Shown here piece by piece: positions 20,332 through 63,236 of a stretch of 63,236 nt of DNA; the stretch's first letter is position 1, and each line of letters begins with the position of its first letter. The position numbers and the translations under genes were made by a program. A model generated the notes under the pieces. It was not told where the DNA came from, did not search any database, and saw only the letters and a program-made list of their open reading frames with translations. Origin of the DNA: a virus; the IMG/VR virus record IMGVR_UViG_3300045988_160579; one strand, given 5' to 3'.

Positions 20332-20553
20332 AAATTCTTGAAACTCCCCCCTTATCAAATCATCATATAATCATCTATTTATCAAAGGAATACATTATAA
20401 GAGAAGAAATTCTCATTTTAAAACTCCCTATATATAGTTATTTACTTTCAAAAGAAATATCGCCATTCGCATCACAGCTTCCTTTTTATACCGATATCTA
20501 TATTAAAAAATTATCATAGCTTTCAAAAGTGAGAATATTTCATATTAGCATTC

Positions 20554-20582
20554 TTGTTTTCAATTTAATATTTATATCTTTG
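20554..20582 (+). promoter_or_regulatory. Bacteroides-type promoter of the deaminase moron
   Basis: TTG (20554-20556), N18, TATCTTTG (20575-20582), 25 nt before ATG 20607. Confidence 0.5.
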
Positions 20583-20606
20583 AAAAAAACAAATACAATA
20601 ATCAAA

Positions 20607-43149: not shown

Positions 43150-43863
43150 CTATTTTTGTTGCATTTCACGTTTAAATCTTTCCTCTAAATCAAAAATGGT
43201 TTCTCCACTATTACGCCGATAGGGCCTATCGGTATTTAACTGAAGTTCTTTCAGCTTTTTCCAATACCATGGAAGGTACAAATACATATTCTTCAACTCC
43301 TTCAAGTTCTTATTTCCACAACACCAGCAACTCACACGATCAAGTAGCTCATATAGCCTTACTCCATCCTCATGCCAAACAAAGCCTTTTGTGTAACAAT
43401 ACTGGAGTGCATCTGCTTCAGTAATGCCCCAATCACGAAGTGGTAAAACCCGATTTGGTCGTTTTTCCTTTTCAAAGCGATGGGTCTCATCGGCAGCAAT
43501 ACCGACATAATCAATTCCGTCTTTTGTGTGAGCTTTCAATGTACGAAGTTTTTCACTCGTTCCCCACCGGCATGTTCCCCCACACCAACTATATCCTTTT
43601 TTATGGATAATATTGGTCCCTCTTTTCTTAACCGGCCTTTCAAACATTGTCCAAAGAAAAGGTTGCTCCGGATGCAGTTCTGTATATTTAATGCCAAGTT
43701 TTTTAAGAATTGGAAGAACAGCATCACGAGTGTTATAGATTGCCTGAAATTCCATACCTGTATCATAGAAAACGACTTCATCCAACTGATATCCTTTATC
43801 TATTAGCATGAAAAGCATTGCCAAGGAATCCTTTCCAAAGCTGACTGAAGCATAATATTTCAT
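43150..43863 (-). CDS. PAPS reductase-family / PP-loop ATPase protein
   Basis: 237 aa. N-terminal PP-loop ASVSFGKDSLAML, with Cys-rich SWCGGTCRWGT and VSCWCC motifs. Confidence 0.7.
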   Translation of the reverse strand: MKYYASVSFGKDSLAMLFMLIDKGYQLDEVVFYDTGMEFQAIYNTRDAVLPILKKLGIKYTELHPEQPFLWTMFERPVKKRGTNIIHKKGYSWCGGTCRWGTSEKLRTLKAHTKDGIDYVGIAADETHRFEKEKRPNRVLPLRDWGITEADALQYCYTKGFVWHEDGVRLYELLDRVSCWCCGNKNLKELKNMYLYLPWYWKKLKELQLNTDRPYRRNSGETIFDLEERFKREMQQK

Positions 43864-44000
43864 ACAAAAAATTTAATAGACAAGTCACTTTTTCTTCTTT
43901 GCCCTCTGATTATTAATCTGTGACATACACATACGGCACCAGGAAGTCAACAAATGATATTCCTTACCTTTTCTCACCACTATACGATTGTAGAACCGGT

Positions 44001-44210
44001 TCAAGTAGAAGTAATTCCGCAATGGGTACATTTTTTCATTTCACGTCCTGAATCATCTATAATCCGATTACGCGGCTTACGACGAATTAGAGTACAACTT
44101 TTACACTTCTCATCAGTTTCGCGGTGCCGCCGGCAATGTGGTAAGGATTTTGCTCCACATTTAGCAAACACTTTACAATCTCTACGAGGTATTGATTGAC
44201 ACACATTCAT
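44001..44210 (-). CDS. small Cys-rich hypothetical protein
   Basis: 69 aa with several CxxC-like pairs. 4-nt overlap with the upstream gene. Confidence 0.4.
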   Translation of the reverse strand: MNVCQSIPRRDCKVFAKCGAKSLPHCRRHRETDEKCKSCTLIRRKPRNRIIDDSGREMKKCTHCGITST

Positions 44211-44671
44211 GGCTTCCTCGCATTCAAGAATTTATTTACTACACGAGAAAGTACATCCTCATTCTCCGGCATCAGCCATTCTTTTGCAACGTTCCAAGCA
44301 ATACTCATAGCAGGATTGAAGTTATCCTTCCTGACTGTGTGATGAGACAAACGTCCTTCAGTGGGCTTCAAACCCTTATCATGTAAGATACACAGTCCAT
44401 TCTCGAAAAAAGCACAATACCCCTTACCAGCAACGGGCTGAATCATCGGAATAGCAATATTAATAACCCCTAAGAATATACCAGCAGCCCAGTTCGTCAG
44501 CGCTAACCTGTCGGCATAACCTGCATCAATAATTCGTTCAATATCATCAGGAGTACCTAAACATGGCGTATGACATTGTTGTTTACAAACACTGCATGAG
44601 CATTGTACAGGTACACGACCTGAAGCCCTCATTACCCTTTGTAATGAGGTTTCTTTTGATAATTCTCTCAT
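44207..44671 (-). CDS. cysteine-cluster protein (YkgJ/CxxCxxCC-like)
   Basis: 154 aa. CSCSVCKQQCHTPC and GYCAFFENGLCILHDKGLKP. Confidence 0.4.
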   Translation of the reverse strand: MRELSKETSLQRVMRASGRVPVQCSCSVCKQQCHTPCLGTPDDIERIIDAGYADRLALTNWAAGIFLGVINIAIPMIQPVAGKGYCAFFENGLCILHDKGLKPTEGRLSHHTVRKDNFNPAMSIAWNVAKEWLMPENEDVLSRVVNKFLNARKP

Positions 44672-44699
44672 AGTAAATTATTTGAGATACTACAAATTA

Positions 44700-45347
44700 T
44701 TAAACATCGCCCCACAGCTTTACTGCAAGGTCATAATTTTTTTTAGCCTCTTTTACTGCTTTATTGGCATAAGCCATAGCGTATGTATGCTCGCGTCGGT
44801 ACTTACCGGACTTCAATCCTTCGTGATATTCTTTTGCTTGTTCCAACTTATGTTCGTAGAAATCTATACTTTCCGGCATGGACAAGTTTATCGTATTAGC
44901 CCTTTTTTCCCAATACTTCGCAACTCTTTCATGTTCGGCAGCCTTATCGCTAAACTCAACGCTTTTCCCCATATTGTTCCACGCATCATCTATCGCTTTT
45001 CTGTGTCGCTTCTCGCTATGATGTCCCACTTTGATAGGCTCACCTAGAGAAAGAAAATCCTTATCTTTATTGGACTTGTTGTAATATTCACAGCTTTTCT
45101 GTACAGCAGATGTAGCCCATTCATGACGACGTTCAGCTCTTTGTTTGGCCCACTCTTGCACATTAAAGCCATCAGCCCGTACGATTGAGTAGTAATAGAA
45201 TCCATCACGTTCGTAAATGAGGTTGAAAACAATACATTCATTTTCTTTTCCATACTTGGTGGTAACTTCAATAGTTTCACCTTTTTCGTGCTTCTCATCA
45301 CACTTTGCCAAAAATACATTTGGCGCAAATTTGTAATACGTGTTCAT
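44700..45347 (-). CDS. DUF3560-like protein
   Basis: 215 aa. GEPIKVGHHSEKRHRKAIDDAWNNMGKSVEFSDKAAEHERVAKYWEKRA. Confidence 0.5.
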   Translation of the reverse strand: MNTYYKFAPNVFLAKCDEKHEKGETIEVTTKYGKENECIVFNLIYERDGFYYYSIVRADGFNVQEWAKQRAERRHEWATSAVQKSCEYYNKSNKDKDFLSLGEPIKVGHHSEKRHRKAIDDAWNNMGKSVEFSDKAAEHERVAKYWEKRANTINLSMPESIDFYEHKLEQAKEYHEGLKSGKYRREHTYAMAYANKAVKEAKKNYDLAVKLWGDV

Positions 45348-45395
45348 TTTTTTAATTAAATTGGTTTGACTTATATGAAAAATGAGAAACCACAG

Positions 45396-45971
45396 CTACT
45401 TAGCCGTGGTTTCATCATTAAATAACTTTGGTTGACTGGGTTGAACCAAATCATCGAATAAACCAGGAACACGAGGTTGTAACGCCTTGTATTCTTCCTG
45501 AAAGAATTCTTCTTTGGTTCTCCCATGTTTTTTACCCTTTCGTGTATGTACATCGAAAGTGTAATCTGGAATAGGAATAGGATAACGCCTGACATCATTT
45601 ATCCACTTTTCTATATCAATATCCTTTCTATCATAGATGAAGTTTTGCAAATGATCCGCATCACGATTCTTTCTACATTCACAAAGGAGAATGACAGCTT
45701 TACTCACAAATATCCTCCCTTTGGGTTCAGTAGCAACCTTGTTTACCAGCTCATGTCCCTGCCATAATGCTTCTATCTCTTTCGTAATGATTCCAAAACA
45801 GTCTTCAGCACTAATGGTAAACAAACGCTTCCACACATAGTCGCGGTACCCACTCGCCCAAAGTTCCAATGCAAAAAAGCCGGCTACCCCGGTGTCGGCT
45901 CGTCTAATGGCTTTCTGCATTGCAGAACTCACCTCAAAGAAATCATATCCGCAAATTGTTCTAATAATCAT
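45396..45971 (-). CDS. hypothetical protein with MgsA C-terminal-like helical motif
   Basis: 191 aa. FFEVSSAMQKAIRRADTGVAGFFALELWASGY. Confidence 0.4.
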   Translation of the reverse strand: MIIRTICGYDFFEVSSAMQKAIRRADTGVAGFFALELWASGYRDYVWKRLFTISAEDCFGIITKEIEALWQGHELVNKVATEPKGRIFVSKAVILLCECRKNRDADHLQNFIYDRKDIDIEKWINDVRRYPIPIPDYTFDVHTRKGKKHGRTKEEFFQEEYKALQPRVPGLFDDLVQPSQPKLFNDETTAK

Positions 45972-46075
45972 AATTCTAATTTAATGGTTTGACTTTTAAT
46001 TGATTACATCAGTAAAATTAGCTAAAAAAGACGAATATGGCAAACAGAATGGACACCATTTAAGCGCCTTTTTTA
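45972..46075 (-). promoter_or_regulatory. repeated promoter/operator cassette, copy 2 (degenerate upstream half)
   Basis: aattctaatttaatGGTTTGACTTTTAAT..ATTACATCAGTAAA is identical or near-identical to copy 4. TTTG-N20-TAATTTTA. The AAAATGGCG repeats are degenerate. Confidence 0.5.
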
Positions 46076-46082
46076 CAGACTA

Positions 46083-46835
46083 TTAGAATTTGAATTTGCA
46101 TGATATATTATATTGAACGAGCTGCTTTGTTTTGTCTTTCCCATTAGTGGTTGCACTCTTTAGCAAAATACTATCACCAAAATTCTTTTTGATAAAGAGG
46201 ATAGATTTACGTTCCTCTTCCTGATTCCTTATAGAAGCAAGCCCGCCAGCATTTACAAAAGTGTTCTTTTGCTCAAAATTATACCGCAAATCGGTTAAAA
46301 CCTTACGCTCTTTGTACTTCATATAACAAGAAATCCAAAAATCTTCCTTCAAACGTATTTCCTCGTTCCACCAGGTGTTTTTGTTATAGATTACTCCATA
46401 GCTACAACCGGTTATCATTTTCGAAAGAGAAAGAAAAGCAGATTCATCATACATTACCGGCGATATCCGAGCGGTGAAGCCAAACAGATGAACATCCATC
46501 ATACTGGCCATTTCATATAATGACTGAATGATGTTAGTTATCTTATCTTTATCCTTTATCCGGCTAGGTTCTCCTTTTTCCGCATAAATAGGTTTACAGG
46601 CATGGACATCATCATCGAGCATGAAGAGCTCACCAAAATGTTTCGCCATCCAATTACGTTTAGGGATGAGGCCGATTACATCGTCCGGATGAGTAACTAT
46701 TTCACATTCCGGGTTAAACTGCTGGTACAAGTCAGCTTGACTTTCGGCAACGCAAATGATAGGATCGTTCACCAACTTTTTAGCGAACACCCGGTCATGG
46801 CGTTTATGACTTGGTATTACTATCTTGCAGGGCAT
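46083..46835 (-). CDS. hypothetical protein, possible GT-A-like glycosyltransferase
   Basis: 250 aa. KIVIPSHKRHDRV near the N-terminus and FMLDDDVH (DxD-like). Weak assignment. Confidence 0.35.
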   Translation of the reverse strand: MPCKIVIPSHKRHDRVFAKKLVNDPIICVAESQADLYQQFNPECEIVTHPDDVIGLIPKRNWMAKHFGELFMLDDDVHACKPIYAEKGEPSRIKDKDKITNIIQSLYEMASMMDVHLFGFTARISPVMYDESAFLSLSKMITGCSYGVIYNKNTWWNEEIRLKEDFWISCYMKYKERKVLTDLRYNFEQKNTFVNAGGLASIRNQEEERKSILFIKKNFGDSILLKSATTNGKDKTKQLVQYNISCKFKF

Positions 46836-47460
46836 GGCGAACGTCTTTTATATCAATTACATTGGATTTACTTATTTTCCCGGTCTTGTACGACTTCATG
46901 TGCTGCATATCCAGCCTTTCACGAAGCCAGTTGCTATCTACCTCATTACTTGATGTGATGATAAACAACTCATGTTTTTCGTCATACTTTGGAATGAGAG
47001 GATAAATGGCTGTATCATCCGTAATGGTATCGAAGCGCTCTTTAAATTCATCCTCTTTCTTCTCTGGGGCAAATTCGATACCCCAGTCTTGGAGTTCCGC
47101 CTTATTCCACTCGTTTTCCATAACGTCCAAATCATTCTCACCAAAATTGACATTATCTTTAGTGGCATATTCCCTCAACTTCTTAACGGGGGTATCAGGT
47201 GCCAGGATTTTACAGGATAGTTCTTTATAACCTAACTCCTTGCAAGCTCGCAAACGTAAATTACCACAAACAACAATATATCTGCCATCATTGTAGGGAA
47301 AAACTATAAGTTCTCGAAGCTCAAGCATCTCTGGCGAATCCTGAATGCTTTTCTTCATCGCTTCAAAGCGGTAATCACGAAAAAAACGTGGATTTTTCGG
47401 CAATCCCGTGAGCTGCCCCTTATTAAAATCAAGTAGGCAGACTTGAATAATCTCTGTCAT
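46804..47460 (-). CDS. ParB N-terminal domain (nuclease-like) protein
   Basis: 218 aa. IVVCGNLRLRACKELGYKE matches the GxRRxRA ParB box. Confidence 0.6.
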   Translation of the reverse strand: MTEIIQVCLLDFNKGQLTGLPKNPRFFRDYRFEAMKKSIQDSPEMLELRELIVFPYNDGRYIVVCGNLRLRACKELGYKELSCKILAPDTPVKKLREYATKDNVNFGENDLDVMENEWNKAELQDWGIEFAPEKKEDEFKERFDTITDDTAIYPLIPKYDEKHELFIITSSNEVDSNWLRERLDMQHMKSYKTGKISKSNVIDIKDVRHALQDSNTKS

Positions 47461-47520
47461 AACTAACTATATTAAAATCAACAACACAAAATCAACAACA
47501 CAAACAGTCAGTAACAACAC

Positions 47521-47814
47521 CTAATCATTTTTTCTATCATCGAACTCTATCTTATCTTTGATAAGCTGTTCAATGTCCTCACAACCAAATCTTTTTAAAT
47601 AGGCAACAAGGTAAATTATCATCTCGGCTGCCAATTCTTCATCTTCCGAATATTTAGGAAGATTATCACTCCTATATTTAGAAGCAATATCGAATTTTCT
47701 CCAAACAGCTTCAATTCTTATGCTAAACGCTTTTCTTGAGCTATGCTCATTCATCTTAAAGCGCTTCTTCATGATATTCAAGCATCTTTGGGCAAACCTA
47801 TTCAATGTTATCAT
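47521..47814 (-). CDS. small hypothetical protein, possibly MazG-like NTP pyrophosphohydrolase
   Basis: 97 aa. EELAAEMIIYLVAYLKRFGCEDIEQLIKDKIEF. Confidence 0.35.
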   Translation of the reverse strand: MITLNRFAQRCLNIMKKRFKMNEHSSRKAFSIRIEAVWRKFDIASKYRSDNLPKYSEDEELAAEMIIYLVAYLKRFGCEDIEQLIKDKIEFDDRKND

Positions 47815-47919
47815 ATCGATCGGGTTAAATTGTTAGACTATGAATAATCTCACATGATTCTTTTAGGCTGGTCCCTGATGCGAAACCAATAAACATATTC
47901 TTTATCTATCAGCATACTA

Positions 47920-48360
47920 TTATTTATTTTGAGGATCTGTTGTATCCAAATACTTCCTGTATTCCAATTCTGTTTTGGCAAGATTGATTACGGTATTAAC
48001 CCCTTGGAAAACTTGTTTTGCTTGGCTCACTTTACTAGGATCTTCTTTCACATCCTTAATTTGTTGAAGAACCAAATTCCTCAAATCTTGTAAAATGGTA
48101 GGGTTCACTGTAGACACCTTATTCAACCGTTCATTAGCCAACACGACAACTGTGTTTGTTATTGGCCGGAAACGATTCAATTTGGAAGCCAAATCAAACA
48201 TACTAAATACCAATACTTTGCCATTATTCAAGTATATTTCAACTTCGGTACCATCATCACCAGTACCGTCACAGTAATTGAGAATTACAACTTCTTCATT
48301 CTGATAAAGGAATGGTTTATTAACCATTTCTTTCAATCTATCTATTGCTCCATCAGTCAT
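47920..48360 (-). CDS. hypothetical protein (146 aa)
   Basis: ORF track. 4-nt overlap with the upstream HNH gene. Confidence 0.5.
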   Translation of the reverse strand: MTDGAIDRLKEMVNKPFLYQNEEVVILNYCDGTGDDGTEVEIYLNNGKVLVFSMFDLASKLNRFRPITNTVVVLANERLNKVSTVNPTILQDLRNLVLQQIKDVKEDPSKVSQAKQVFQGVNTVINLAKTELEYRKYLDTTDPQNK

Positions 48361-49121
48361 GATTCATTCTTTTTTGTTGCTTTATTAATTTGTCTATTCA
48401 AAGCTCCTTTTAGCTTGATTAGGTATTGAACATCTTCCGGATATCGGGCATACAAAGAATTCTCTTTTTTTAATTGTTCAGGACGACTAATCATGTAAAG
48501 GTTCTCAATGGAAACGTTTTGCCTGTTGCCATCCTTAAACTGAATATTATAACCAGGGGGGGATTCTCCATTATGCTCAATCCATACAAGCCGATGTTTA
48601 AGTTCAAAGACATTCGGTTCGGCAGTTTTCACTTCAATGTAACCGTCACGAGTTATGCGTTCATAACCGACTGGTTTATGATTTTTGGGGATATGTCCTT
48701 TCTTAAATCGAGTAGCTTTCGTTTTTGCCAATTGTTCCTCTGACATATATTCCGTTTGCTTACGTCCCTTGTTCATCGGTTGGTGGCCTTTGGGAAAGAA
48801 GCTTTTAGAAGCGCATTGAAATTTAAATTCTTTAGATTTAAAGAGCCGTAATTTAAATGCAATTCCATTTACAGCAGAATAAGTGGTACCTAATATCTGT
48901 GCTATTTCCTCATTAGTATGATTGGGATACAACTTTTTCAATTTATCAAGTCTCTCACTATTCCAAAACGAGATTCTCGGAGAGCGCCTAAGTTTTCGAA
49001 TCAAGGCCTTTGTTTTAACAGCACTAAGTGTTTTATCAAGACGCCTAGCAAGTTCTTTTAAATCAGCAGTCGGGTACTCACTGTCAAGTATAGCAAGTTG
49101 TTCGCCAGTCCACGTTTTCAT
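48357..49121 (-). CDS. HNH (HNH_3-type) homing-endonuclease-like protein with N-terminal HTH repeats
   Basis: 254 aa. LKHRLVWIEHNGESPPGYNIQFKDGNRQNVSIENLYMISR. Confidence 0.65.
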   Translation of the reverse strand: MKTWTGEQLAILDSEYPTADLKELARRLDKTLSAVKTKALIRKLRRSPRISFWNSERLDKLKKLYPNHTNEEIAQILGTTYSAVNGIAFKLRLFKSKEFKFQCASKSFFPKGHQPMNKGRKQTEYMSEEQLAKTKATRFKKGHIPKNHKPVGYERITRDGYIEVKTAEPNVFELKHRLVWIEHNGESPPGYNIQFKDGNRQNVSIENLYMISRPEQLKKENSLYARYPEDVQYLIKLKGALNRQINKATKKNES

Positions 49122-49148
49122 AAGTGCGTCAATAAAGAGAGGAAACCA

Positions 49149-50867
49149 CTAGGCTTCCTCTGTGTTATCGTTATTTAGCTCTTTCAGTCTTTCTTTGAGC
49201 TTCTTTTCTTTCTTATCATATGAATCCGCAAGTTTCTTAGAGAGCGCTTTGAAATCATCCGGATATTGTTCTGCAAAAAGGATTTTCTGACACTTTTGCA
49301 AATAGGAGTAGAAATTCACATTATTCGATGATAAGCATTCAGCAATAAAGGCTCTATACCATTGGTGTCGGTCAGCTTGGTTGTTTTTGACATAATTTAC
49401 AAAATCACTCTCACCATTCCATTTTTTCAAATTCAGTTTTTCAAGATAAGTACTGCTACAACCGCTAAGAACCAGCACATCAAAAACAAGTTGTTCATTT
49501 TCAGAGAATTCTTTTGTTCTCTGATAATATGTTTTCTCTTGCGCCCACTTACGCATTTCTTCAGCAGACTTCTCCTTGACTATATCCTTCGCTCTTTTTA
49601 ATTGGGCGTTTATTTTTTCCCTTTCTATCTCTTTTAGATCGGCAACGGCGGAAGTAGAGGAAGCCGTTTCTTTTCTAACATAATAGAAACTAACGTTAAA
49701 TTCGGGAGAATAATGTCCAAAAAATGAAAGACAACGATAAACTTCTCCATCTTCAAGCATTTTCAAAGTGCGTTCATCATCTTCTGAATACCAGCACTTA
49801 CATCTAAAGATTTCATCAGGATCAACTATTTCAAATCCAAGTTGTTTAACAGCTTCCAAAGTTTTTTCATAGAAAACCTTTCTATCTTCTCCCCAATATG
49901 TATCAGGACGTCTAGCGATAATTACTGTTTTTCCAAATGAAAGAGGTTCGCCAACTTTAACAAGATGTTCATATTCTAGTTGAATTTTCCGCGTCACATA
50001 AGCAATTTGTTTTTTCTCATAGCAAGCAGCATTGATACATCTAGCATCCTTACTATTCATTTCATAGAACAAACAACCATGATTACACGTATTATTCTCA
50101 CATTGAGAACATGATTTAATATCAGTATTTTCCCAATTATCGGAATCATCTTTAATCCAAGGTGCGTTACCAAGCTCCATGAAAGAATTACTCACAAATT
50201 CTCGAATCATAGCAGTAGTACATTGTTCTTCCTCCTCCTCATGAAACTCTTTTTGAGTATCTTCATCCAATTTAGAAAGAATCATAGCACCGGACAATGG
50301 TATATCTCCATTTCTTACCCGCTCTTTTAGTTCAGGAATAAGAGAATTCAATTTAATACGGTCAAATACAAACCGGGTAGACTTTCCTATTTTAAGAGCG
50401 ATATCTTCCAAAGTTCGTCCTTTTTCAGCCAACTGCGCAAAGGCAAAAGCTTCTTCGATGGGATCAACATCTTTTCTTTGAAGATTCTCGGTAATCATCG
50501 CTTCAAAAGCCTCATCATCTGTCATTTCTCTGACAATGCAGGAAATCGCTTGGAATTGTTCTGATTTCTTGCGATGTGCCTTGATTTTAGCAACATTCTC
50601 TTTATCTTCCTTCTCTTTCAATAGTGATACAGCACGGAAGCGGCGCTCACCACATACAATTTCATACGAACAGGGAATTGTTGTCACATCACCAGTCTCC
50701 AAGTTGGTCACATCCTCGGATTTGGCAACTCGAACAGTGATAGGCTGTAATAAGCCTTGTTTCTCAATATTACTTGCAAGCTCTTGAAGAGCTACTTCAT
50801 CAAAAGTCTTTCTCGGATTCAAAGGAGAAGGACTGATAAGGTCAATTCTAATGTTTTGTACTTCCAT
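49149..50867 (-). CDS. large ParB-family protein
   Basis: 572 aa. N-terminal IDLISPSPLNPRK...GLLQPITVR...VCGERRFRAV. Cys-rich middle region. Confidence 0.7.
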   Translation of the reverse strand: MEVQNIRIDLISPSPLNPRKTFDEVALQELASNIEKQGLLQPITVRVAKSEDVTNLETGDVTTIPCSYEIVCGERRFRAVSLLKEKEDKENVAKIKAHRKKSEQFQAISCIVREMTDDEAFEAMITENLQRKDVDPIEEAFAFAQLAEKGRTLEDIALKIGKSTRFVFDRIKLNSLIPELKERVRNGDIPLSGAMILSKLDEDTQKEFHEEEEEQCTTAMIREFVSNSFMELGNAPWIKDDSDNWENTDIKSCSQCENNTCNHGCLFYEMNSKDARCINAACYEKKQIAYVTRKIQLEYEHLVKVGEPLSFGKTVIIARRPDTYWGEDRKVFYEKTLEAVKQLGFEIVDPDEIFRCKCWYSEDDERTLKMLEDGEVYRCLSFFGHYSPEFNVSFYYVRKETASSTSAVADLKEIEREKINAQLKRAKDIVKEKSAEEMRKWAQEKTYYQRTKEFSENEQLVFDVLVLSGCSSTYLEKLNLKKWNGESDFVNYVKNNQADRHQWYRAFIAECLSSNNVNFYSYLQKCQKILFAEQYPDDFKALSKKLADSYDKKEKKLKERLKELNNDNTEEA

Positions 50868-56946: not shown

Positions 56947-57725
56947 TTTCTAGGAGGATACGTTTTCTGCATGTCAATAGTTATGTTTCTGAACTCCTTA
57001 TTATTGTGAAGTTCGGGATGTTCAGTCCAAACTCTCTCAAGCTCTTCGCGGCTTTTAACACCAGTCATTTGTTTAATTGCACGATCCAGGTCTACACCAG
57101 TATATACTTTGCCCGAAGCGTTTGAAGCAGAAACATTGGGAGCATATACTTTTTCCTTTGTATTACCATAAGCAAAACGAACGCGGTTTTTATTGTCCAC
57201 AATAACAAGTAAAATAATCTCCTTTTGCTCGTTATAACCAATCTCTTTTACACTGAATTTGGTGTATAGAGCAGGAGAACCTGTTTTGCTCTGATATATT
57301 TCATTTTTCTCAAGTGGAATCCAAATGAAAGGACCCGTATAAAGTTCACGCCCAATTCCCCAGTTAAATCCTGCACGTTTAAAGGCGTCCGAAGCCTGCC
57401 CTTTCTCTTTTTCTGTGCTAGATTCTGTCCCAACATCCTGTTTACTCACCCATTCCTTCTTTTCATTATCCCAAATGGACAACGTACAGAATAGATTCCC
57501 ATTAACGACATCATGGTGCCGTTTCCAGTTCATTTCTCCGAACACTTCATCAAGTATTCTCATGTCTACTCGAGCATCCTTGTATAATAGCAAGGAGCAG
57601 CCCGAACCGTCCGGTTTCATAGTACCAACCCTACATTCAATTTCAGAAGCTAGAAGCGGTCTGATAGAATTTTTCTTCTTCTCTTCATTCTGAACCGTTG
57701 ATACAGTGTTTTTTCTCGCTGTCAT
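56943..57725 (-). CDS. Rad52/Sak-like single-strand annealing protein
   Basis: 260 aa. MRILDEVFGEMNWKRHHD...GQASDAFKRAGFNWGIGRELY. Confidence 0.6.
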   Translation of the reverse strand: MTARKNTVSTVQNEEKKKNSIRPLLASEIECRVGTMKPDGSGCSLLLYKDARVDMRILDEVFGEMNWKRHHDVVNGNLFCTLSIWDNEKKEWVSKQDVGTESSTEKEKGQASDAFKRAGFNWGIGRELYTGPFIWIPLEKNEIYQSKTGSPALYTKFSVKEIGYNEQKEIILLVIVDNKNRVRFAYGNTKEKVYAPNVSASNASGKVYTGVDLDRAIKQMTGVKSREELERVWTEHPELHNNKEFRNITIDMQKTYPPRN

Positions 57726-57829
57726 AATTCTAATTTAATGGTTTGACTTTTAGCTCATTACATCAGTAAAGGTAATCGTTATTGACAAGTTTAGCAAACA
57801 GAAACTTCGCCATTTTAACGCCATTTTCA
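57726..57829 (-). promoter_or_regulatory. repeated promoter/operator cassette, copy 4
   Basis: AAAATGGCG x2 (57827-57819, 57816-57808), TTTG (57798-57795), N20, TACCTTTA (57774-57767), and the AAAAGTCAAACC box (57751-57740), 14 nt before the ATG. Confidence 0.55.
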
Positions 57830-57835
57830 GGTAGT

Positions 57836-57871
57836 AAAAACTGCCTGTACGATATTGTACAGGCAGAAAAA
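57836..57871 (-). terminator. strong terminator ending the tRNA-like RNA block
   Basis: ctgcctgtac (57841-57850) pairs with gtacaggcag (57857-57866), a 10-bp stem. The T-run on the minus strand is plus-strand aaaaa at 57836-57840. Confidence 0.7.
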
Positions 57872-57961
57872 TAAGAAAATGAATAATCCAATGTACCTTA
57901 TGGAACGGCTACGCTTTGAAGGGTGTACGGCTCCCTGATTTATACATAATGTAAATGCTAG

Positions 57962-58044
57962 TGGACGGAACCGGAGTCGAACCGGTCTCACGGAATATTG
58001 GTGCACCTCACCGCAGTTTCAACCAACGATATACATATCCGCCC
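57962..58044 (-). tRNA. tRNA-like RNA T1 (83 nt) without a canonical D or anticodon arm
   Basis: Acceptor GGGCGGA/TCCGTCC with G3-U70 and A73; T arm ACCGG-TTCGACT-CCGGT. The 49 nt in between contain GTTGGTT, but I found no 5-bp stem with a 7-nt loop. Confidence 0.4.
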
Positions 58045-58145
58045 GATTAATTAAAAAGGTGCACTATCTTCACAGACCATACACCCCAATCACAAACACA
58101 AAACAAAACTCATGAACTACTATAATTTAATTAGGATCAGAAGGG

Positions 58146-58212
58146 TGAATGGCGTGGGGATCGACCCCACATCACGCATATCTGCGTATGCTGCCAATTA
58201 CACCAGCCATCC
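58146..58212 (-). tRNA. tRNA-like RNA T2 (67 nt) with a tetraloop in place of the anticodon loop
   Basis: Acceptor GGATGGC/GCCATTC; D arm GTGT-AATTGGCA-GCAT; T arm GTGGG-GTCGATC-CCCAC. The anticodon position is occupied by ACGCA-GATA-TGCGT. Confidence 0.4.
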
Positions 58213-58439
58213 GTTTTAAGTGAACTATTCTCACGAACCATTCACCTAGAACACAAACACAAAATAAAACACGACATTAACTATTAAATAGCACTCTCAC
58301 GAGCTTCTTGCTTCCGGATAGCCGTTCAAAGCACACCGGAATAGTATAGAACAATTAAAACTCAAATAACAGGGGCTTTAACCCTACAGCGTCCTTTTCG
58401 CTGGCAACATTAGTTAAACATAAAAAGAAAAATTCTCTG

Positions 58440-58537
58440 TGAAGGAACCCGGACTCGAACCGGGATGATAGATTACCTATGTATGACTTTCTTCAATCTA
58501 TCTGCATACTTGCGTTTACCAATTCCGCCATTCCTTC
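58440..58537 (-). tRNA. class II (Leu-like) tRNA-like RNA T3 (98 nt) with a 19-nt anticodon loop
   Basis: Acceptor GAAGGAA/TTCCTTC; D arm TGGCGGAATTGGTAAACGC; variable arm ATAG-GTAAT-CTAT; T arm CCCGG-TTCGAGT-CCGGG. The GTATG/CATAC stem encloses CAGATAGATTGAAGAAAGT. Confidence 0.4.
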
Positions 58538-58629
58538 AGGTCGTAGCCAGACGCTTCCGGCTACATTGATTGTATATATAATGCAAATATATTTTCACCC
58601 TCACGGGTTACTTAACTCTGATTGAGTTG

Positions 58630-58700
58630 AGCCGGGAAACGGATTCGAACCGCTGACCTCATGTAGAAACATGCGCTCTGACCAACTGGGCTATCCCGGC
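58630..58700 (-). tRNA. tRNA-like RNA T4 (71 nt; Arg-UCU-like) with an anticodon arm 3 nt too short
   Basis: Acceptor GCCGGGA/TCCCGGC; D arm GCCC-AGTTGGTCA-GAGC; variable loop AGGTC; T arm AGCGG-TTCGAAT-CCGTT. The anticodon arm is only 14 nt (CATGT-TTCT-ACATG, or CATG-TTTCTA-CATG). Confidence 0.45.
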
Positions 58701-58762
58701 AGATGCCCGGCGAACCGGGCTAAATAAACATGACAAATACTAAAATTAAGCAATGCAGACCT

Positions 58763-58954
58763 TCACAGGCTATCTTTATTTTGTTTCCTATCTTCGTAGT
58801 ATCGAAAACAGATATAATTCACTGATACGACAGTCACCAATACAAAAGCAGCAATAAATTCTTTCTTGCTAACTTCAATGCTATCTATAAGATACAGTGT
58901 TGTCCATAAGGCAATGAACATCATGGCATACTGTATCACTTTAATCTTTTTCAT
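58763..58954 (-). CDS. small membrane protein (63 aa)
   Basis: Two hydrophobic helices. Followed by the gcccgg-cgaa-ccgggc hairpin (58704-58719). Confidence 0.4.
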   Translation of the reverse strand: MKKIKVIQYAMMFIALWTTLYLIDSIEVSKKEFIAAFVLVTVVSVNYICFRYYEDRKQNKDSL

Positions 58955-59208
58955 TTCTTCCGTTTTTTAGATTTAACTTTCCTTCCCGCACATCGGCAAT
59001 GAAGTAATACTTGAGCAGCATTACAATGCCACTTGCCGTTTTGGACATTAGTGGGCTTATCACTTTCAATCTTACCCGCTTCTATAAGATTCATCAATTT
59101 CTTTTCCCCACCCACATAATACGCAGACTTATCTTTTCCAAACGTTTCTGTAGAAAACAGACGGAGAATATTATCTAGCAATATTTCAGCCATTTCACCT
59201 CTGATCAT
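58951..59208 (-). CDS. hypothetical basic protein
   Basis: Track ORF extends to 59283; an internal start (MIRGEMAEILL) avoids overlap with the upstream ORF. Lys/Arg-rich tail. Confidence 0.4.
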   Translation of the reverse strand: MIRGEMAEILLDNILRLFSTETFGKDKSAYYVGGEKKLMNLIEAGKIESDKPTNVQNGKWHCNAAQVLLHCRCAGRKVKSKKRKK

Positions 59209-59225
59209 CTCAACAAGCAAGGTAG

Positions 59226-59456
59226 TTATGCAATTCTGGTTACTATAAACTGCATATTTTTTACATCTGACTTTGTTTTCCAAGCCATTCCTTCAGCTTT
59301 TTCTTTATAAAGCCGAGCATTCAATGTATTAGTTACAGACGGTTTCTGAACGATAGGAAATACTTCTATTGCACCAACATCCATACTCCGTAATACATCA
59401 ATTACGTTACGTCTCTGAATATCCTTTTCCATACAATCTAATTTTAAATTAAACAT
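59226..59456 (-). CDS. hypothetical protein (76 aa)
   Basis: ORF track. Starts 3 nt after the 3' end of the tRNA-shaped RNA T5. Confidence 0.4.
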   Translation of the reverse strand: MFNLKLDCMEKDIQRRNVIDVLRSMDVGAIEVFPIVQKPSVTNTLNARLYKEKAEGMAWKTKSDVKNMQFIVTRIA

Positions 59457-59458
59457 TG

Positions 59459-59592
59459 AAGCGATGAGCGGATTCGAACCGCCGACCTCTGCTTGTGGTG
59501 CTCTTCCGTTAAGCTAAGAGTATTTCTTGAGAGACTCGAACTCTCAACCATCCACCACACACAGCGCTCTAACCTGCCTGAGCTACATCACC
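59459..59592 (-). ncRNA. 134-nt tRNA-shaped RNA T5 with a 12-bp helix plus two hairpins replacing the anticodon loop
   Basis: GGTGATG-TA-GCTC-AGGCAGGTTA-GAGC-G-CTGTGTGTGGTG-[GATGG TTGAGAG-TTCGAGT-CTCTCAA GAAATA CTCTT-AGCTTAACGG-AAGAG]-CACCACAAGCAG-AGGTC-GGCGG-TTCGAAT-CCGCT-CATCGCT-T. Confidence 0.45.
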
Positions 59593-59866
59593 TTTATATA
59601 CATAAAGCAAATACCTCGATTTGCCGACAAACGTCTAACTGATTTAGTTTTACAACGATACGGCTTGACCATTAACCACAGCATTATATCGTTGAGAAGC
59701 CCGCCTACGTCAGTAATCCCTTTCGGCACGTGTCGGCTTCCAAAACACCATTTTACCAATATGTCAAAGAACTCTTCTCTGTTGTTCCCAGTCTCCCTTC
59801 AAGGGCAGGCTCAAAGACCGGACTGGGTACCGGATAACCGGCGGTTTGGTTTGACTTTAATGAGGG
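59593..59866 (-). ncRNA. ~270-nt structured non-coding leader upstream of T5
   Basis: No credible ORF. Multiple helices on the minus strand: CCCAGTC/GACTGGG, GAAGCC/GGCTTC, AACGATA/TATCGTT, GCAAAT/ATTTGC, GCCGACA/TGTCGGC. Starts with AAAGTCAAACC. Confidence 0.35.
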
Positions 59867-60103
59867 TTAGAGAATACTTTGGTTGTTCTTCAAAACTATG
59901 TCCATTAAGTTTCGTTGCGATTCAATAAATTTCTTCAAATCATCACATTGGGAAACTTTCTCTCTATAAAATCCACGTTCTGATTCTAAATCTCGTTTGA
60001 GTTTTTCATTTTCACCTCTCAAAGAGCTGATCAACGCGTCTCGTTCTTCAATCACAGCTTCATATTTGTCTCGCTGTATTTCTAGTTCGGTTCTTTTATC
60101 CAT
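59867..60103 (-). CDS. hypothetical coiled-coil protein (78 aa)
   Basis: ORF track; early leftward operon. Confidence 0.45.
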   Translation of the reverse strand: MDKRTELEIQRDKYEAVIEERDALISSLRGENEKLKRDLESERGFYREKVSQCDDLKKFIESQRNLMDIVLKNNQSIL

Positions 60104-60118
60104 TGTTGTATAATTTGA

Positions 60119-60412
60119 TTAATCTCCGACGTAATGTGCACCGTAATGAGTACTATTTGGGTTGTAGTAAGCGGAAGCGGGAATATTAAGGTTATTATAT
60201 TCCTTGCTAGGTGTATCTTTGGCAGTCTTGCTCATAGCTTCATGTCTTTCAGCTAAAAATTTATCAGTTCTTGATTTCACTGCTTCCGGTGAGAAACTTT
60301 CTTGGAGTTTTGCGAAGCTCCATGCAGATTTTAAACACTCTGAAAATGTTTTTCCACCCTTCTTGTAATTGCGGTGTGCAGACTTCATTATTTGTGATAA
60401 ATTGTAGCTCAT
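60119..60412 (-). CDS. first early (leftward) gene, hypothetical (97 aa)
   Basis: Divergent from the repressor gene across the 60413..60565 switch region. Confidence 0.5.
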   Translation of the reverse strand: MSYNLSQIMKSAHRNYKKGGKTFSECLKSAWSFAKLQESFSPEAVKSRTDKFLAERHEAMSKTAKDTPSKEYNNLNIPASAYYNPNSTHYGAHYVGD

Positions 60413-60484
60413 AATCGTTATTTTTTAATTGGTTTTATCAATCATTTTTTGTATGTTTGTATGATTGATTGATTTATGATGCAA

Positions 60485-60549
60485 ATATATCCTCAAATGT
60501 GGATATATAAAAATTAAAAACCTATTTTATATCACCATTTGTGGATATT
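60485..60549. promoter_or_regulatory. operator-like inverted repeats in the immunity switch region
   Basis: ATATATCC-N8-GGATATAT (60485-60508) and TATATCACC-N6-GGATAT (60526-60548). The TGTGGATAT half-site recurs at 60498 and 60540, 42 bp apart. Confidence 0.5.
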
Positions 60550-60565
60550 TAACTTTTGATTGATT

Positions 60566-60946
60566 ATGATAAACAGAATTAAAGAAGTAATAACCTATTC
60601 AGGGCTATCAGAGAGGGGATTTGCTATTAAGTGTGGATTAAAGCCCACAACTATTAATAATCAACTGATAGGAAAAAGAGAAATTAGCCTTGCAACAATA
60701 ATAGCAATTTCATCCTCATTTGAGGAAATTTCCGCTGAATGGTTGTTAAGAGGAACTGGTTCCATGCTCATTCAAAAAGAAGAAACAGAACCAGGAATGG
60801 ACAAATTGAAAAGTATTGTATATACCATAGCCAATTTGCAGGATGAAATCAATGAAAAGACAGTACTTACTCAACGCCTTTTGGAAGAAAACCAGAAATT
60901 AAAGGGTGAACTGGCTATGTTGAAGAACGAACGAAATATAGGATAA
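60566..60946 (+). CDS. HTH (XRE/CI-like) repressor with C-terminal leucine-zipper-like coiled coil
   Basis: Track ORF starts at TTG 60560; ATG is at 60566. IKEVITYSGLSERGFAIKCGLKPTTINNQLIGKREISLATIIAISSSF, then LLEENQKLKGELAMLKNE. Confidence 0.7.
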   Translation: MINRIKEVITYSGLSERGFAIKCGLKPTTINNQLIGKREISLATIIAISSSFEEISAEWLLRGTGSMLIQKEETEPGMDKLKSIVYTIANLQDEINEKTVLTQRLLEENQKLKGELAMLKNERNIG

Positions 60947-61045
60947 GCCGTGAAAAGGACATATCATAGCATTTTAAGTATGCGCCAAATTGAAACAGTA
61001 GAGCCTAATTATTATATAGCTAACACTATAATTTAATTCATACAT

Positions 61046-63213: not shown

Positions 63214-63236
63214 GTCTAGTTTAGTTTTTGTGTTGA
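63214..63236. repeat. 23-bp terminal direct repeat, right copy
   Basis: Identical to 1..23. Confidence 0.85.

What the first reader, a model, noticed from the sequence alone, without database searches (positions are those of the whole stretch)
57962..58700. Array of four tRNA-derived RNAs whose acceptor, D and T arms are intact but whose anticodon arms are all non-canonical
The 0.9-kb ORF-free block between the early genes and the recombination operon lies on the minus strand and ends in a 10-bp terminator at 57841-57866. It contains four elements with perfect 7-bp acceptor stems and TTCGAnT-type T arms. I folded them by hand.

- T4 (58630..58700) is a complete cloverleaf, except that the anticodon arm is 14 nt instead of 17 (CATGT-TTCT-ACATG). 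Exactly three nucleotides are missing from an Arg-UCU-like loop.
- T2 (58146..58212) has ACGCA-GATA-TGCGT at that position, a 4-nt loop.
- T3 (58440..58537) is a Leu-like class II molecule with a proper variable arm, but it has a 19-nt loop closed by GTATG/CATAC.
- T1 (57962..58044) has a G3-U70 and A73 (alanine-like) acceptor and a T arm. I could not find a 5-bp stem with a 7-nt loop in its middle 49 nt.

None of the four could decode a codon as drawn. Random pseudogenisation would be expected to damage the other arms as well, yet those are intact. That suggests selection for tRNA mimics that lack an anticodon. They could be decoys or inhibitors for anticodon nucleases and other tRNA-targeting defences. 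They could also serve as handles for tRNA-processing, CCA-adding or aminoacylation enzymes. I know of no described phage system of this kind. My hand folds may be wrong.
Basis: partly seen in the sequence, partly recalled or inferred. Interest (0 to 1): 0.8.

Follow-up and report, generated by a model that had tools for sequence, protein, structure and literature searches.

The report
Phage array of anticodon-less tRNA-shaped RNAs
A Bacteroides prophage carries a conserved operon of at least five RNAs that keep the tRNA body but have the anticodon arm replaced by a tiny loop or another folded RNA module, so they cannot decode and probably use the cell's tRNA-handling machinery for some other purpose.

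Summary
The four elements are real, at the stated coordinates on the minus strand, and the terminator is real. Details need correction. T1 has no D stem. T2's D stem is poor, and this window's copy has a private T54-to-G change. A fifth element, T5 (59459-59592), was missed.

The window is a BV01/BX01-like ("Salyersviridae") Bacteroides prophage with no decoding tRNA. Related prophages keep the acceptor, D and T helices through compensatory changes (96-99% of cells paired). The anticodon-arm position behaves as a swap slot:
- T4 has a 3-4-nt loop or 27-94-nt inserts.
- T5 carries a second, circularly permuted tRNA-like elbow, or the same tetraloop cap as T4.
- T3 has at least five different inserts.
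- T1 has two subtypes.

Units are gained and lost between genomes. Each follows a covarying hairpin, and the spacers also covary. These are selected, non-decoding RNAs built on a tRNA chassis, not pseudogenes.

Similar tetraloop-capped and tRNA-in-tRNA genes occur in unrelated viral contigs. No Rfam family, partner protein or paper explains them.

My best reading is that the tRNA body is a processing and stability handle and a protein-binding surface, and the slot carries interchangeable modules. A decoy role against tRNA-targeting defences is plausible but untested.

The parts
59459..59592 (-). T5: an outer tRNA-like scaffold whose anticodon stem continues into a second, circularly permuted tRNA-like elbow (a tRNA inside a tRNA).
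   Evidence: Rfam tRNA 39.1 bits with a 70-nt insert. In the 23-variant alignment A4, 99.1% of cells pair; outer acceptor 6/7 and outer T stem 3/5 pairs covary. An allelic 71-nt 'empty' form occurs in L017, L022, L058 and L027.
59494..59559 (-). T5 inner module. It comprises a 10-bp connecting helix, a T-arm-like hairpin (GAGAG-TTCGAGT-CTCTC), a 3-bp closed mini-acceptor (AGA-AATAC-TCT) and a D-arm-like hairpin (GCTT-AACGGAA-GAGC).
   Evidence: Nearly invariant across 23 variants from several gut phage groups, although the outer scaffolds differ. Weak YrlA match of 21.7 bits, E 0.3. L145 349-503 has the same architecture with a 7-bp closed acceptor.
58763..59432 (-). Three small ORFs lying between T5 and T4 (about 68, 80 and 63 aa). 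The middle one is phrog_18744 and the last is predicted to be a membrane protein.
   Evidence: Sequence reading. PHROG hit at 4.9e-50. No Pfam domain.
58705..58720 (-). T4 leader hairpin GCCCGG-TTCG-CCGGGC, 4 nt upstream of T4.
   Evidence: Conserved in relatives; L073 has GCCCGGA-TAACAT-TCCGGGC.
58630..58700 (-). T4: a class-I tRNA-like RNA with a full set of tertiary-contact nucleotides. The anticodon arm is a 5-bp stem CATGT/ACATG capped by TTCT.
   Evidence: Rfam 54.6 bits. ARAGORN 'tRNA-???'. In scaffold alignment A3, 96.4% of cells pair and 15/21 pairs show compensatory change. Alleles at the same site carry 27-94-nt inserts.
58584..58591 (-). Bacteroides-type -7 promoter box TATATTTG (consensus TAnnTTTG), upstream of the T3 leader hairpin.
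   Evidence: One of only two such matches on this strand in 57700-60300. Conserved in divergent loci. The promoter consensus comes from established knowledge and was not tested here.
58543..58564 (-). T3 leader hairpin GTAGCCGGA-AGCG-TCTGGCTAC, a 9-bp stem.
   Evidence: 9/9 pairs hold in all five sequence variants, with compensatory changes.
58440..58537 (-). T3: a tRNA-Leu-like class-II scaffold (A73, D arm GGCGGAATTGGTAAACGC). Its central 45 nt form either GTATG/CATAC plus a small variable arm, or a pseudoknot with GATAGATT/AATCTATC.
   Evidence: Rfam 40.8 bits. Scaffold halves are 85-100% identical to divergent loci, against 18-42% for the centre. At least five different inserts give total lengths of 98, 106, 113, 146 and 149 nt.
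58246..58439 (-). S3: a structured spacer RNA that is not tRNA-like. It contains hairpin CAGCG-AAAAGGA-CGCTG (58387-58403), stem TTCCGG/CCGGAA (58336-58341 with 58312-58317) and hairpin GCTC-GTGA-GAGT.
   Evidence: Compensatory changes in both helices across loci. No Rfam match.
58220..58245 (-). T2 leader hairpin: 11 bp with a GTGA loop and a conserved internal G-A mismatch.
   Evidence: 21 variants. The outer stem covaries and the core YGGTYY-GYGA-RRATAG is invariant.
58146..58212 (-). T2: a 67-nt class-I tRNA-like RNA. The anticodon arm is stem ACGCA/TGCGT with loop GATA. This window's copy has a private T54-to-G change.
   Evidence: A relative's copy (L014) scores 38.6 bits for tRNA. The unit is absent from L006, L047, L064, L068, L075, L076 and L080.
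58059..58084 (-). T1 leader hairpin (GTGTATGGTCT-GTGA-AGATAGTGCAC), followed by a T-run.
57962..58044 (-). T1: an alanine-type acceptor (G3-U70, A73) and a T arm, with no D stem. The middle holds a GGTG-AGGTG-CACC hairpin and a small GTGA hairpin.
   Evidence: For the sister subtype B (alignment A2), 91% of cells pair with compensatory changes in all three helices, and G3-U70 is kept in 11/12 variants.
57867..57961 (-). Conserved non-coding tail after T1, with possible hairpin GTAC-A-CCTT...AAGG-TAC.
   Evidence: 82-100% identical in divergent loci that keep it, and replaced by an ORF in L073 and L075. The structure was not tested.
57841..57866 (-). Intrinsic terminator that closes the RNA array, upstream of the Erf operon promoter region.
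   Evidence: 10-bp stem followed by TTTTT.

Best explanation
The block is an early-region operon of non-decoding RNAs built on a tRNA chassis.

Shown:
- Each unit keeps the acceptor/T-arm stack and, except in T1, the D-arm elbow of a tRNA.
- The anticodon-arm position is a slot. It is either capped by a 3-4-nt loop or carries an exchangeable structured module. Modules include a second tRNA-like elbow in T5, a possible pseudoknot in T3, and roughly 90-nt domains in T4 alleles.
- Units, spacers and leader hairpins all evolve under structural constraint.
- Units are shuffled between related prophages.

Inferred:
- One or two long transcripts run from the -7 boxes at 59891-59898 and 58584-58591 to the terminator at 57841-57866.
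- The host tRNA-maturation enzymes cut these transcripts: RNase P at each 5' end, and RNase Z or exonucleases plus the CCA-adding enzyme at each 3' end.
- The hairpin just upstream of each unit then becomes the protective 3' end of the preceding RNA.
- The tRNA body therefore gives each RNA defined ends, stability, and access to proteins that read tRNA shape rather than the anticodon.
- The effector activity lies in the inserted module, or in the bare body for the capped units. It most likely works by binding or titrating a host or defence factor during early lytic growth.
For: Identity and context:
- Three elements pass the Rfam tRNA threshold in a window that has no decoding tRNA.
- The window is a Bacteroides prophage of the BX01/BV01 type.
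- The array lies upstream of Erf/RecE-like/SSB/NinB genes and downstream of the divergent early region.

Selection on the tRNA body:
- T4/T5/T7 scaffolds: 96.4% of cells paired, 15/21 pairs with compensatory change.
- T1-B: 91% paired, with compensatory change in all three helices.
- T5: 99.1% paired, with the outer helices covarying and the inner module invariant.

The slot:
- Allelic capped and loaded forms occupy exactly the same site.
- T3 scaffold halves are 85-100% identical, against 18-42% for the centre.

The array:
- Units are gained and lost between genomes.
- Leader hairpins and spacers covary.
- A promoter box and a terminator bracket the array.

Beyond this phage:
- The same two designs occur in unrelated viral contigs. 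Tetraloop-capped cloverleaves are in L179, L166 and L122, and a tRNA-in-tRNA within an array is in L145.

Precedent, from established knowledge:
- Engineered tRNA scaffolds with an RNA inserted in the anticodon stem are processed and stabilised in E. coli.
- M. smegmatis YrlA is cut by RNase P and receives CCA (PMC4201824).
Against: - There is no expression, processing or binding data of any kind.
- T2 and T4 in this window carry no module, so a pure carrier role does not explain them.
- T1 lacks a D stem, and its fold was not resolved for the window subtype.
- The hairpins before T1 (and before T1-B in relatives) are followed by T-runs and could terminate transcription instead of acting as 3' caps.
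- Promoter assignment rests on one consensus motif.
- No partner protein is encoded nearby.
- Covariation counts include paralogous scaffolds, so part of the signal is what any set of tRNA-derived sequences would show.
Confidence: 0.5

Rival explanations
1. tRNA-mimic decoys or inhibitors. The bare tRNA bodies titrate a tRNA-targeting defence or toxin that reads the acceptor end, elbow or variable arm. [quoted passage not shown] This would protect host tRNAs during lytic growth.
For: - The array sits in a variable, cassette-like early region, as anti-defence loci typically do.
- The capped units T2 and T4 have no cargo, so any activity must lie in the body.
- Defences that cut tRNA outside the anticodon loop exist, and phage tRNAs have been suggested to act as decoys or supplements (PMC13096335).
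- Class-II scaffolds with variable arms are frequent in the array.
Against: - Anticodon nucleases need the loop that these RNAs lack.
- No such defence is known or was identified in Bacteroides here.
- In T5 the conserved part is the insert, not the body.
- There are no functional data.
Confidence: 0.2
2. Cis-acting punctuation only. The tRNA-like units are processing signals that cut the early transcript into separate mRNAs and RNAs and set their stability. This would resemble mitochondrial tRNA punctuation, MALAT1 mascRNA or MHV68 TMERs. The released tRNA-like pieces would have no function of their own.
For: - T5 and T4 flank a three-ORF block.
- RNase P and RNase Z ignore the anticodon arm (established knowledge), which would explain why only that arm is free to vary.
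- Each unit follows a hairpin that could cap the upstream fragment.
Against: - Four units in a row with no ORF between them are more than punctuation needs.
- Inserts are structured and conserved. The T5 inner module is nearly invariant across phage groups, and the T4 insert of about 90 nt is kept in L047, L080, L197 and L284.
- D-arm and tertiary-contact nucleotides, which RNase P needs little, are also kept.
Confidence: 0.12
3. Aminoacylated, non-decoding carriers or a mini-tmRNA. T1 would be charged by AlaRS (G3-U70, A73) and T3 by LeuRS (class II, A73), both of which ignore the anticodon. The charged RNAs would then sequester synthetases, EF-Tu or SmpB, or feed a tRNA-dependent transferase.
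For: - G3-U70 and A73 are kept in 11/12 T1-B variants while neighbouring pairs covary.
- The same acceptor is reused on some T5 scaffolds.
- Some T1-B copies encode CCA.
- T1 has a stemless D region followed by a helix, as in the tmRNA tRNA-like domain. This comparison is from memory, not a test.
- The T3 D arm matches tRNA-Leu (comparison from memory).
Against: - L064-type T1 has G3-C70.
- T4 and T5 have U73 and no clear identity set.
- ARAGORN and Rfam find no tmRNA.
- No transferase, SmpB-like or synthetase gene is in the window.
- Charging was not tested.
Confidence: 0.1
4. Decaying tRNA pseudogenes, or DNA-level elements such as recombination or attachment-site copies, with no RNA function.
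For: - The window's T2 has a damaging private T54-to-G change.
- The main T4 allele has a D-stem mismatch.
- Temperate phages often carry tRNA gene fragments at attachment sites (established knowledge).
Against: - Compensatory changes keep 91-99% of pairs.
- Loops are closed by perfect stems, and inserts are structured.
- Elements are complete, not 3' fragments, and lie about 5 kb from the prophage end, which is near 63223.
- The array is conserved in the 80 IMG/VR contigs and 5 Bacteroides genomes fetched through the adjacent Erf gene.
Confidence: 0.05

Closest known systems
YrlA / bacterial Y RNAs (Rfam RF02553)
   Same: The T5 inner module has the YrlA order: T arm, closed acceptor-like hairpin, D arm, all entered through a helix at the anticodon-stem position. 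YrlA is a tRNA mimic found in bacteria and phages. In M. smegmatis it is cut by RNase P and receives CCA (PMC4201824).
   Different: - The score is 21.7 bits against a threshold of 69.
- No Ro60/TROVE gene was found in the window.
- No Ro60-binding helix or GNCGAA motif was seen.
- The entry helix leads into a complete outer tRNA-like scaffold, not a Ro60 site.
tmRNA tRNA-like domain
   Same: T1 shares an alanine-type acceptor (G3-U70, A73), a T arm and a D region without a stem, with a helix replacing the anticodon arm. This resemblance is recalled from memory and is only a lead.
   Different: T1 is 77-83 nt long, with no pseudoknots and no tag reading frame. ARAGORN and Rfam do not call it tmRNA.
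Engineered tRNA scaffolds (Ponchon and Dardel type recombinant RNA)
   Same: An RNA of interest is inserted in the anticodon stem of a tRNA, so that the cell processes and stabilises it. T3, T5 and the loaded T4 alleles have exactly this topology (PMC3753655 and PMC3401473, listed; the principle is from established knowledge).
   Different: Those are man-made. Here the design is natural, arrayed, and includes cargo-less capped versions.
Viral and cellular tRNA-like processing handles (MHV68 TMERs, MALAT1 mascRNA)
   Same: These are non-decoding tRNA-shaped RNAs with short or abnormal anticodon arms. RNase P and RNase Z recognise them, and they define the ends of neighbouring RNAs (established knowledge; PMC11693755 listed).
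   Different: They are eukaryotic, made by pol III or cut from lncRNA 3' ends, occur singly, and have no exchangeable inserts.
Phage decoding tRNAs that counter tRNA-targeting defences (T5 tRNA-Lys versus PARIS, tRNA-Tyr versus Retron-Eco7/Septu)
   Same: They are phage-encoded tRNA-shaped RNAs expressed early, with a proposed supplement or decoy role (PMC11464382, PMC11555353, PMC13096335).
   Different: Those are functional tRNAs with anticodons that restore translation. The RNAs here cannot decode.

Membership tests
Decoding tRNA (Rfam RF00005 / ARAGORN) | Score at or above the Rfam gathering threshold of 29 bits | tested here: met
   T4 54.6, T3 40.8 and T5 39.1 bits. T2 and T1 fall below threshold in this window. 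T2 scores 38.6 bits in L014.
Decoding tRNA (Rfam RF00005 / ARAGORN) | 5-bp anticodon stem closing a 7-nt loop with a 3-nt anticodon | tested here: not met
   - T4 has a 4-nt loop, and ARAGORN reports a 2-nt anticodon.
- T3 has 39 nt and T5 has 70 nt in place of the arm.
- T2 has a 4-nt loop.
- T1 has none.
Decoding tRNA (Rfam RF00005 / ARAGORN) | Acceptor, D and T helices kept by covariation | tested here: met
   96.4% of cells paired on A3, 99.1% on A4, and 91.2% on A2 for the acceptor, T stem and central helix. T1 has no D stem.
YrlA (RF02553) | Score at or above the gathering threshold of 69 bits | tested here: not met
   21.7 bits, E 0.3, on 59476-59567.
YrlA (RF02553) | Encoded next to a Ro60/TROVE gene | tested here: not met
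   No TROVE hit among about 47 window ORFs scanned with Pfam or PHROGs. ORFs under 80 aa and a few others were not scanned.
YrlA (RF02553) | Module order of T arm, closed acceptor-like hairpin, D arm | tested here: met
   T5 inner module. L145 has a 7-bp closed acceptor.
tmRNA | Detected as tmRNA with a tag reading frame and pseudoknots | tested here: not met
   ARAGORN finds no tmRNA. There is no Rfam tmRNA match at E up to 10 in 57000-61000. T1 is only 83 nt.
tmRNA | G3-U70 alanine identity with A73 | tested here: met
   Present in the window's T1 and in 11/12 T1-B variants. Charging itself is not testable here.
tRNA pseudogene | Unconstrained decay in all arms among homologues | tested here: not met
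   Helices are kept by compensatory change, and only the anticodon-arm slot is replaced.
GOLLD / ROOL and other large phage-associated RNAs | Match to the Rfam models | tested here: not met
   Only tRNA hits appear at gathering threshold across the whole window. Nothing relevant appears at E up to 10 in 57000-61000, or at E up to 1 in five variant loci.

The most novel reading that the evidence does not exclude
Phages from unrelated groups encode a previously unrecognised class of modular RNAs built on a tRNA chassis. These are arrays of non-decoding tRNA bodies whose anticodon slot is capped or loaded with interchangeable RNA modules, including head-to-head double-tRNA dumbbells. They use host tRNA maturation to make stable effector RNAs that bind or disarm host or defence proteins which read tRNA shape.
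Probability: 0.3. Interest if true: 0.85.

Novelty: new variant of a known kind. Interest (0 to 1): 0.72.

Why it matters
- **A natural RNA-expression strategy.** If these RNAs are made and processed as predicted, phages use the same design that engineers invented as the tRNA scaffold, and they exchange the inserts like cassettes.
- **A new pool of viral non-coding RNAs.** It would open a set of effector RNAs in one of the commonest prophage families of human gut Bacteroides. It would also give a concrete way to find more, by scanning for tRNA bodies with abnormal anticodon arms. tRNA finders currently skip these or label them undetermined.
- **Testable links to current questions.** The alanine-type acceptor of T1, the Leu-type T3 and the double-elbow T5 allow direct tests of links to aminoacylation, trans-translation and tRNA-targeting immunity.

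Tried and rejected
- **GenBank phage searches.** Megablast and blastn of the region against GenBank phages found no relatives, only short tRNA-Thr similarity to T4.
- **Rfam.** Permissive scans of the window region and of five variant loci matched no known family for any insert or spacer.
- **Protein scans.** Pfam and PHROG scans of about 47 ORFs looked for Ro60, RtcB, CCA-adding enzyme, RNA ligase and tRNA transferases. None was found.
- **Neighbour-gene enrichment.** Among 89 unrelated loci carrying short-arm tRNA-likes, the analysis only recovered synteny within one other phage group. There was no shared partner protein.
- **Folding.** Minimum-free-energy folding was uninformative for T1 and T3 (z = -0.01 for T1). 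I rejected the T1 stem TTGG/CCAA because homologues vary it freely.
- **Promoters.** The sigma-70 scan does not apply to Bacteroides and was at chance level. The T/G-rich tracts before T2 and T1 do not fit the TAnnTTTG box.
- **T1 loop self-pairing.** The self-complementary T1 loop (GTGCAC, GTGTAC, GTGCGCAC) suggests kissing-loop dimers. However, two window-subtype lineages (GGTACACC) break it, so I keep this only as an idea.
- **Literature.** Nine searches found no description of this system. The CSBJ 2023 catalogue may list T1-B as a "tRNA-Cys-like" candidate, but its supplement is not held.
- **Intron reading.** I rejected introns as an explanation for the inserts. They are too short for group I introns, and the insert-free alleles have 3-4-nt loops rather than 7-nt loops.
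Full report
**1. The observation**

The minus strand of 57841-58720 contains the four elements at exactly the coordinates given.
- ARAGORN reports one gene in the whole 63-kb window. It is T4 (58629-58700), called tRNA-??? with a 2-nt anticodon.
- The Rfam tRNA model passes its 29-bit threshold three times:
  - T4: 54.6 bits, E 5e-9, with one residue where four loop positions are expected.
  - T3: 40.8 bits, with 39 nt replacing the anticodon arm.
- T1 and T2 are below threshold in this window.
- The terminator at 57841-57866 is confirmed.

- T1 has no D stem.
- T2's D stem is poor. This window's copy alone has G instead of T54, which turns the T-loop into a 6-bp/5-nt hairpin. A relative's copy (L014) scores 38.6 bits.
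- The common T4 allele has a C-A mismatch in the D stem.

**2. Context**

The window is a temperate siphovirus-type prophage. It carries an integrase at 240-1463, a DGR-type reverse transcriptase, a tape-measure protein, a terminase, and Erf/RecE-like/SSB/NinB genes just downstream of the array.
- GenBank phages hold no close relative.
- The Erf gene retrieves 80 IMG/VR contigs and 5 Bacteroides genomes. One of them is B. xylanisolvens XB1A, whose prophage BX01 belongs to the proposed Salyersviridae (BV01-like). That paper does not mention these RNAs.
- The right prophage end lies near 63223.
- From gene order, I infer that the array sits in the early leftward operon, between a divergent regulatory region near 60.4-60.6 kb and the recombination genes.

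**3. What the homologues show**

Related loci fall into groups that are about 99%, 90% and 76-80% identical to the window. Across them the tRNA body is kept and the anticodon-arm position is replaced.

- **T4.** The stem CATG/CATG closes TTCT, TTCC, TTTT, TTT, AAT or CTT, or inserts of 27, 73, 92 or 94 nt, all at the same site. The long inserts are themselves conserved and fold into extended helices.
- **T5.** It exists as the 134-nt loaded form, or as a 71-nt form capped by the same GCATGTTTCTACATG stem-loop as T4.
- **T3.** The two scaffold halves are 85-100% identical to divergent loci, while the central 45 nt are 18-42% identical, meaning the centre is non-homologous. At least five inserts exist.
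- **T1.** There are two subtypes that differ in the middle.

Pair counts on these alignments:

| Alignment | Content | Cells paired | Covariation |
|---|---|---|---|
| A3 | 33 distinct T4/T5/T7 scaffolds | 96.4% | 15/21 pairs changed on both sides |
| A2 | 12 T1-B variants | 91.2% | one compensatory pair in each of three helices |
| A4 | 23 T5 variants | 99.1% | see below |

In T5 the outer acceptor (6/7 pairs) and outer T stem (3/5 pairs) covary freely. The inner module and its connecting helix are almost invariant. The scaffold is therefore interchangeable and the insert is the conserved part. Some T5 copies even use the T1-type acceptor GGGCGGT/ACCGTCC with A73.

Caveat: these alignments mix paralogous units, and the shuffle control does not correct for relatedness. 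The counts show maintained pairing, not a formal covariation test.

**4. Anatomy of the units**

- **T4** keeps U8, A14, G18-G19, A21, G15-C48, G53-C61 and a TTCGAAT loop.
- **T3** has the D arm of a bacterial tRNA-Leu, plus A73. The few variants do not decide between these.
- **T2** is a 67-nt body with stem ACGCA/TGCGT and loop GATA or GGTA.
- **T1** has G3-U70 and A73, kept in 11/12 T1-B variants while pairs 4-69 and 7-66 change. It has a stemless D region (TC..GG.TGAAA) and then a helix.
  - In subtype B that helix is TTACN/N'GTAA, with three different Watson-Crick pairs at the variable position.
  - Its apical loop is always self-complementary: GTGCAC, GTGTAC with G-U, or GTGCGCAC/GTGCGCAT flanked by tandem G-A.
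  - The window subtype has GGTGCACC, which can also fold as GGTG-AGGTG-CACC.
- **T5** reads as an outer tRNA-like RNA whose anticodon stem continues into a 10-bp helix (with one G-A mismatch). That helix leads to a variable-loop-like GATGG(TT), a T arm, a 3-bp closed acceptor, TA, and a D arm. In other words, a circularly permuted tRNA is fused head-to-head to the outer one.

**5. Array architecture**

- Each unit is preceded, 3-14 nt upstream, by a stable hairpin:
  - T4: GCCCGG-TTCG-CCGGGC.
  - T3: a 9-bp hairpin that stays 9/9 paired in all five variants.
  - T2 and T1: an 11-bp GTGA hairpin whose outer stem covaries in 21 variants around an invariant core with a G-A mismatch.
- The spacer after T3 (S3) has two helices with compensatory changes.
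- Units are gained and lost. T2 is absent from several loci. L072 and L073 carry other class-II-like units in that slot. L014-type loci have an extra unit (T6). L207/L248-type loci have another scaffold with a 47-nt insert (T7).
- The only Bacteroides-type -7 boxes on this strand lie before the T3 leader and before the non-coding stretch upstream of T5.

**6. Beyond this prophage**

The samples do contain unrelated contigs with the same designs.
- L179, L166 and L122 fold by minimum free energy into perfect cloverleaves with a 5-bp stem and a 4-nt loop.
- ARAGORN calls tRNA-??? genes inside ordinary phage tRNA clusters.
- L145, a GC-rich contig, starts with a dense array of at least seven odd tRNA-likes. 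One of them is a tRNA-in-tRNA with a complete closed 7-bp inner acceptor.
- T5 homologues occur in several other gut phage groups, next to normal tRNA genes.

**7. Mechanism**

What is shown:
- These are non-decoding, tRNA-derived RNA genes under structural selection.
- They have a replaceable anticodon-arm slot.
- They are arranged in a shuffled array together with other structured RNAs.

What is inferred:
- The tRNA body recruits RNase P, RNase Z or exonucleases, the CCA-adding enzyme and modification enzymes. All of these ignore the anticodon arm (established knowledge).
- Each unit would then be excised from a long early transcript and stabilised, with the upstream hairpins capping the preceding fragments.
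- The effector activity would lie in the inserted module or, for capped units, in the body itself.

I rate this chassis model at about 0.5. Narrower alternatives:

| Alternative | Confidence |
|---|---|
| Decoys for tRNA-targeting defences that read the acceptor, elbow or variable arm | 0.2 |
| Pure punctuation of the transcript | 0.12 |
| Aminoacylated non-decoding carriers or a mini-tmRNA (T1 Ala, T3 Leu) | 0.1 |
| Pseudogenes or DNA-level elements | 0.05 |

Anticodon nucleases are unlikely targets because the loop they recognise is absent.

**8. Comparison with known systems**

- The T5 inner module works like YrlA but fails YrlA membership: 21.7 versus 69 bits, with no Ro60 gene and no Ro60-binding helix.
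- T1 resembles the tmRNA tRNA-like domain only in outline, and it is not detected as tmRNA.
- The loaded units have the topology of engineered tRNA scaffolds.
- mascRNA and MHV68 TMERs are the nearest functional analogues for tRNA-shaped processing handles.
- Phage tRNAs that rescue translation from PARIS, Retron-Eco7 or Septu are decoding tRNAs.
- A 2023 catalogue of viral structured-RNA candidates mentions "tRNA or tRNA-like" motifs without function. One of them, which overlaps ARAGORN tRNA-Cys calls, could be T1-B, because ARAGORN calls T1-B tRNA-Cys(gca). I could not check this.

**9. Verdict**

This is a real and unusual feature. I class it as a new variant of the known kind "tRNA-mimic non-coding RNA". 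It is distinguished by its arrayed, modular, cassette-like organisation and by the tRNA-in-tRNA unit. Its function is unproven, but every proposal above is directly testable in a cultivable lysogen.

Noticed in passing
L145 1-730 (IMGVR_UViG_3300042136_000012): A dense array of at least seven abnormal tRNA-like elements sits in an unrelated, GC-rich viral contig. It includes a tRNA-in-tRNA at 349-503 with a closed 7-bp inner acceptor, and units with 41-nt and about 70-nt inserts. Rfam gives weak YrlA hits of about 28 bits.
   Followed up: partly
L309, L313, L328, L353, L371, L375, L393, L357, L380 (match positions): A recurrent unannotated element appears in many unrelated viral contigs. Its order is: long closing stem, hairpin with a 7-nt loop, AGGTC, T arm, short closed hairpin, TA, D arm. 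It looks like a YrlA-type permuted tRNA mimic, but those scanned do not reach any Rfam gathering score.
   Followed up: partly
L023 159-324 (minus strand of the locus), beyond the prophage end: Flanking DNA outside the prophage holds a 55-nt tRNA-like element with acceptor, D and T arms but no anticodon arm at all. A 91-nt odd tRNA-like lies next to it.
   Followed up: no
L091-type loci (22 loci, e.g. L091 6675-6756): A second gut phage group carries a tRNA-like element with a short anticodon arm (CCAC-ACTTCC-GTGG) and an extended, imperfect acceptor helix. It lies immediately upstream of a conserved 106-aa ORF, which suggests a cis role.
   Followed up: partly
window 58146-58212: This window's T2 has a private T54-to-G substitution, which no other T2 variant recovered from the related loci shows. 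It converts the T-loop into a 6-bp stem with a 5-nt loop, so this copy may be defective.
   Followed up: yes
window 59593-59900: About 300 nt of ORF-free sequence upstream of T5 is preceded by a TAGTTTTG -7-like box at 59891-59898. The first 100 nt or so next to T5 are 93-97% conserved even in loci that are about 76% identical elsewhere. This may be another structured RNA or a leader.
   Followed up: no
window 20529-21410 (+): A 293-aa ORF with a cytidine/dCMP deaminase domain (MafB19-like hit) lies on the opposite strand inside the tail gene block. It could be a moron, a toxin or a defence gene.
   Followed up: no
window 2395-3507 (-), 7156-8577 (-), 43150-50867 (-): Other accessory genes are present: an AbiC-like abortive-infection protein next to the integrase, a DGR-type reverse transcriptase, and a likely DNA-hypermodification set (TET-associated glycosyltransferase 46083-46835, ParB-like 49149-50867, PAPS-reductase-like 43150-43863).
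   Followed up: no
L047 325-441 (minus strand): A sub-threshold match to Bacteroides sRNA BTnc049 (55.5 bits versus 81.9) lies near the prophage end or host flank.
   Followed up: no
window 57726-57840: The stretch between the array terminator and the Erf start codon is unusually conserved (78-99% across all groups). It contains repeated GAAAATGGCG/TAAAATGGCG motifs and is probably the operator/promoter of the recombination operon.
   Followed up: no
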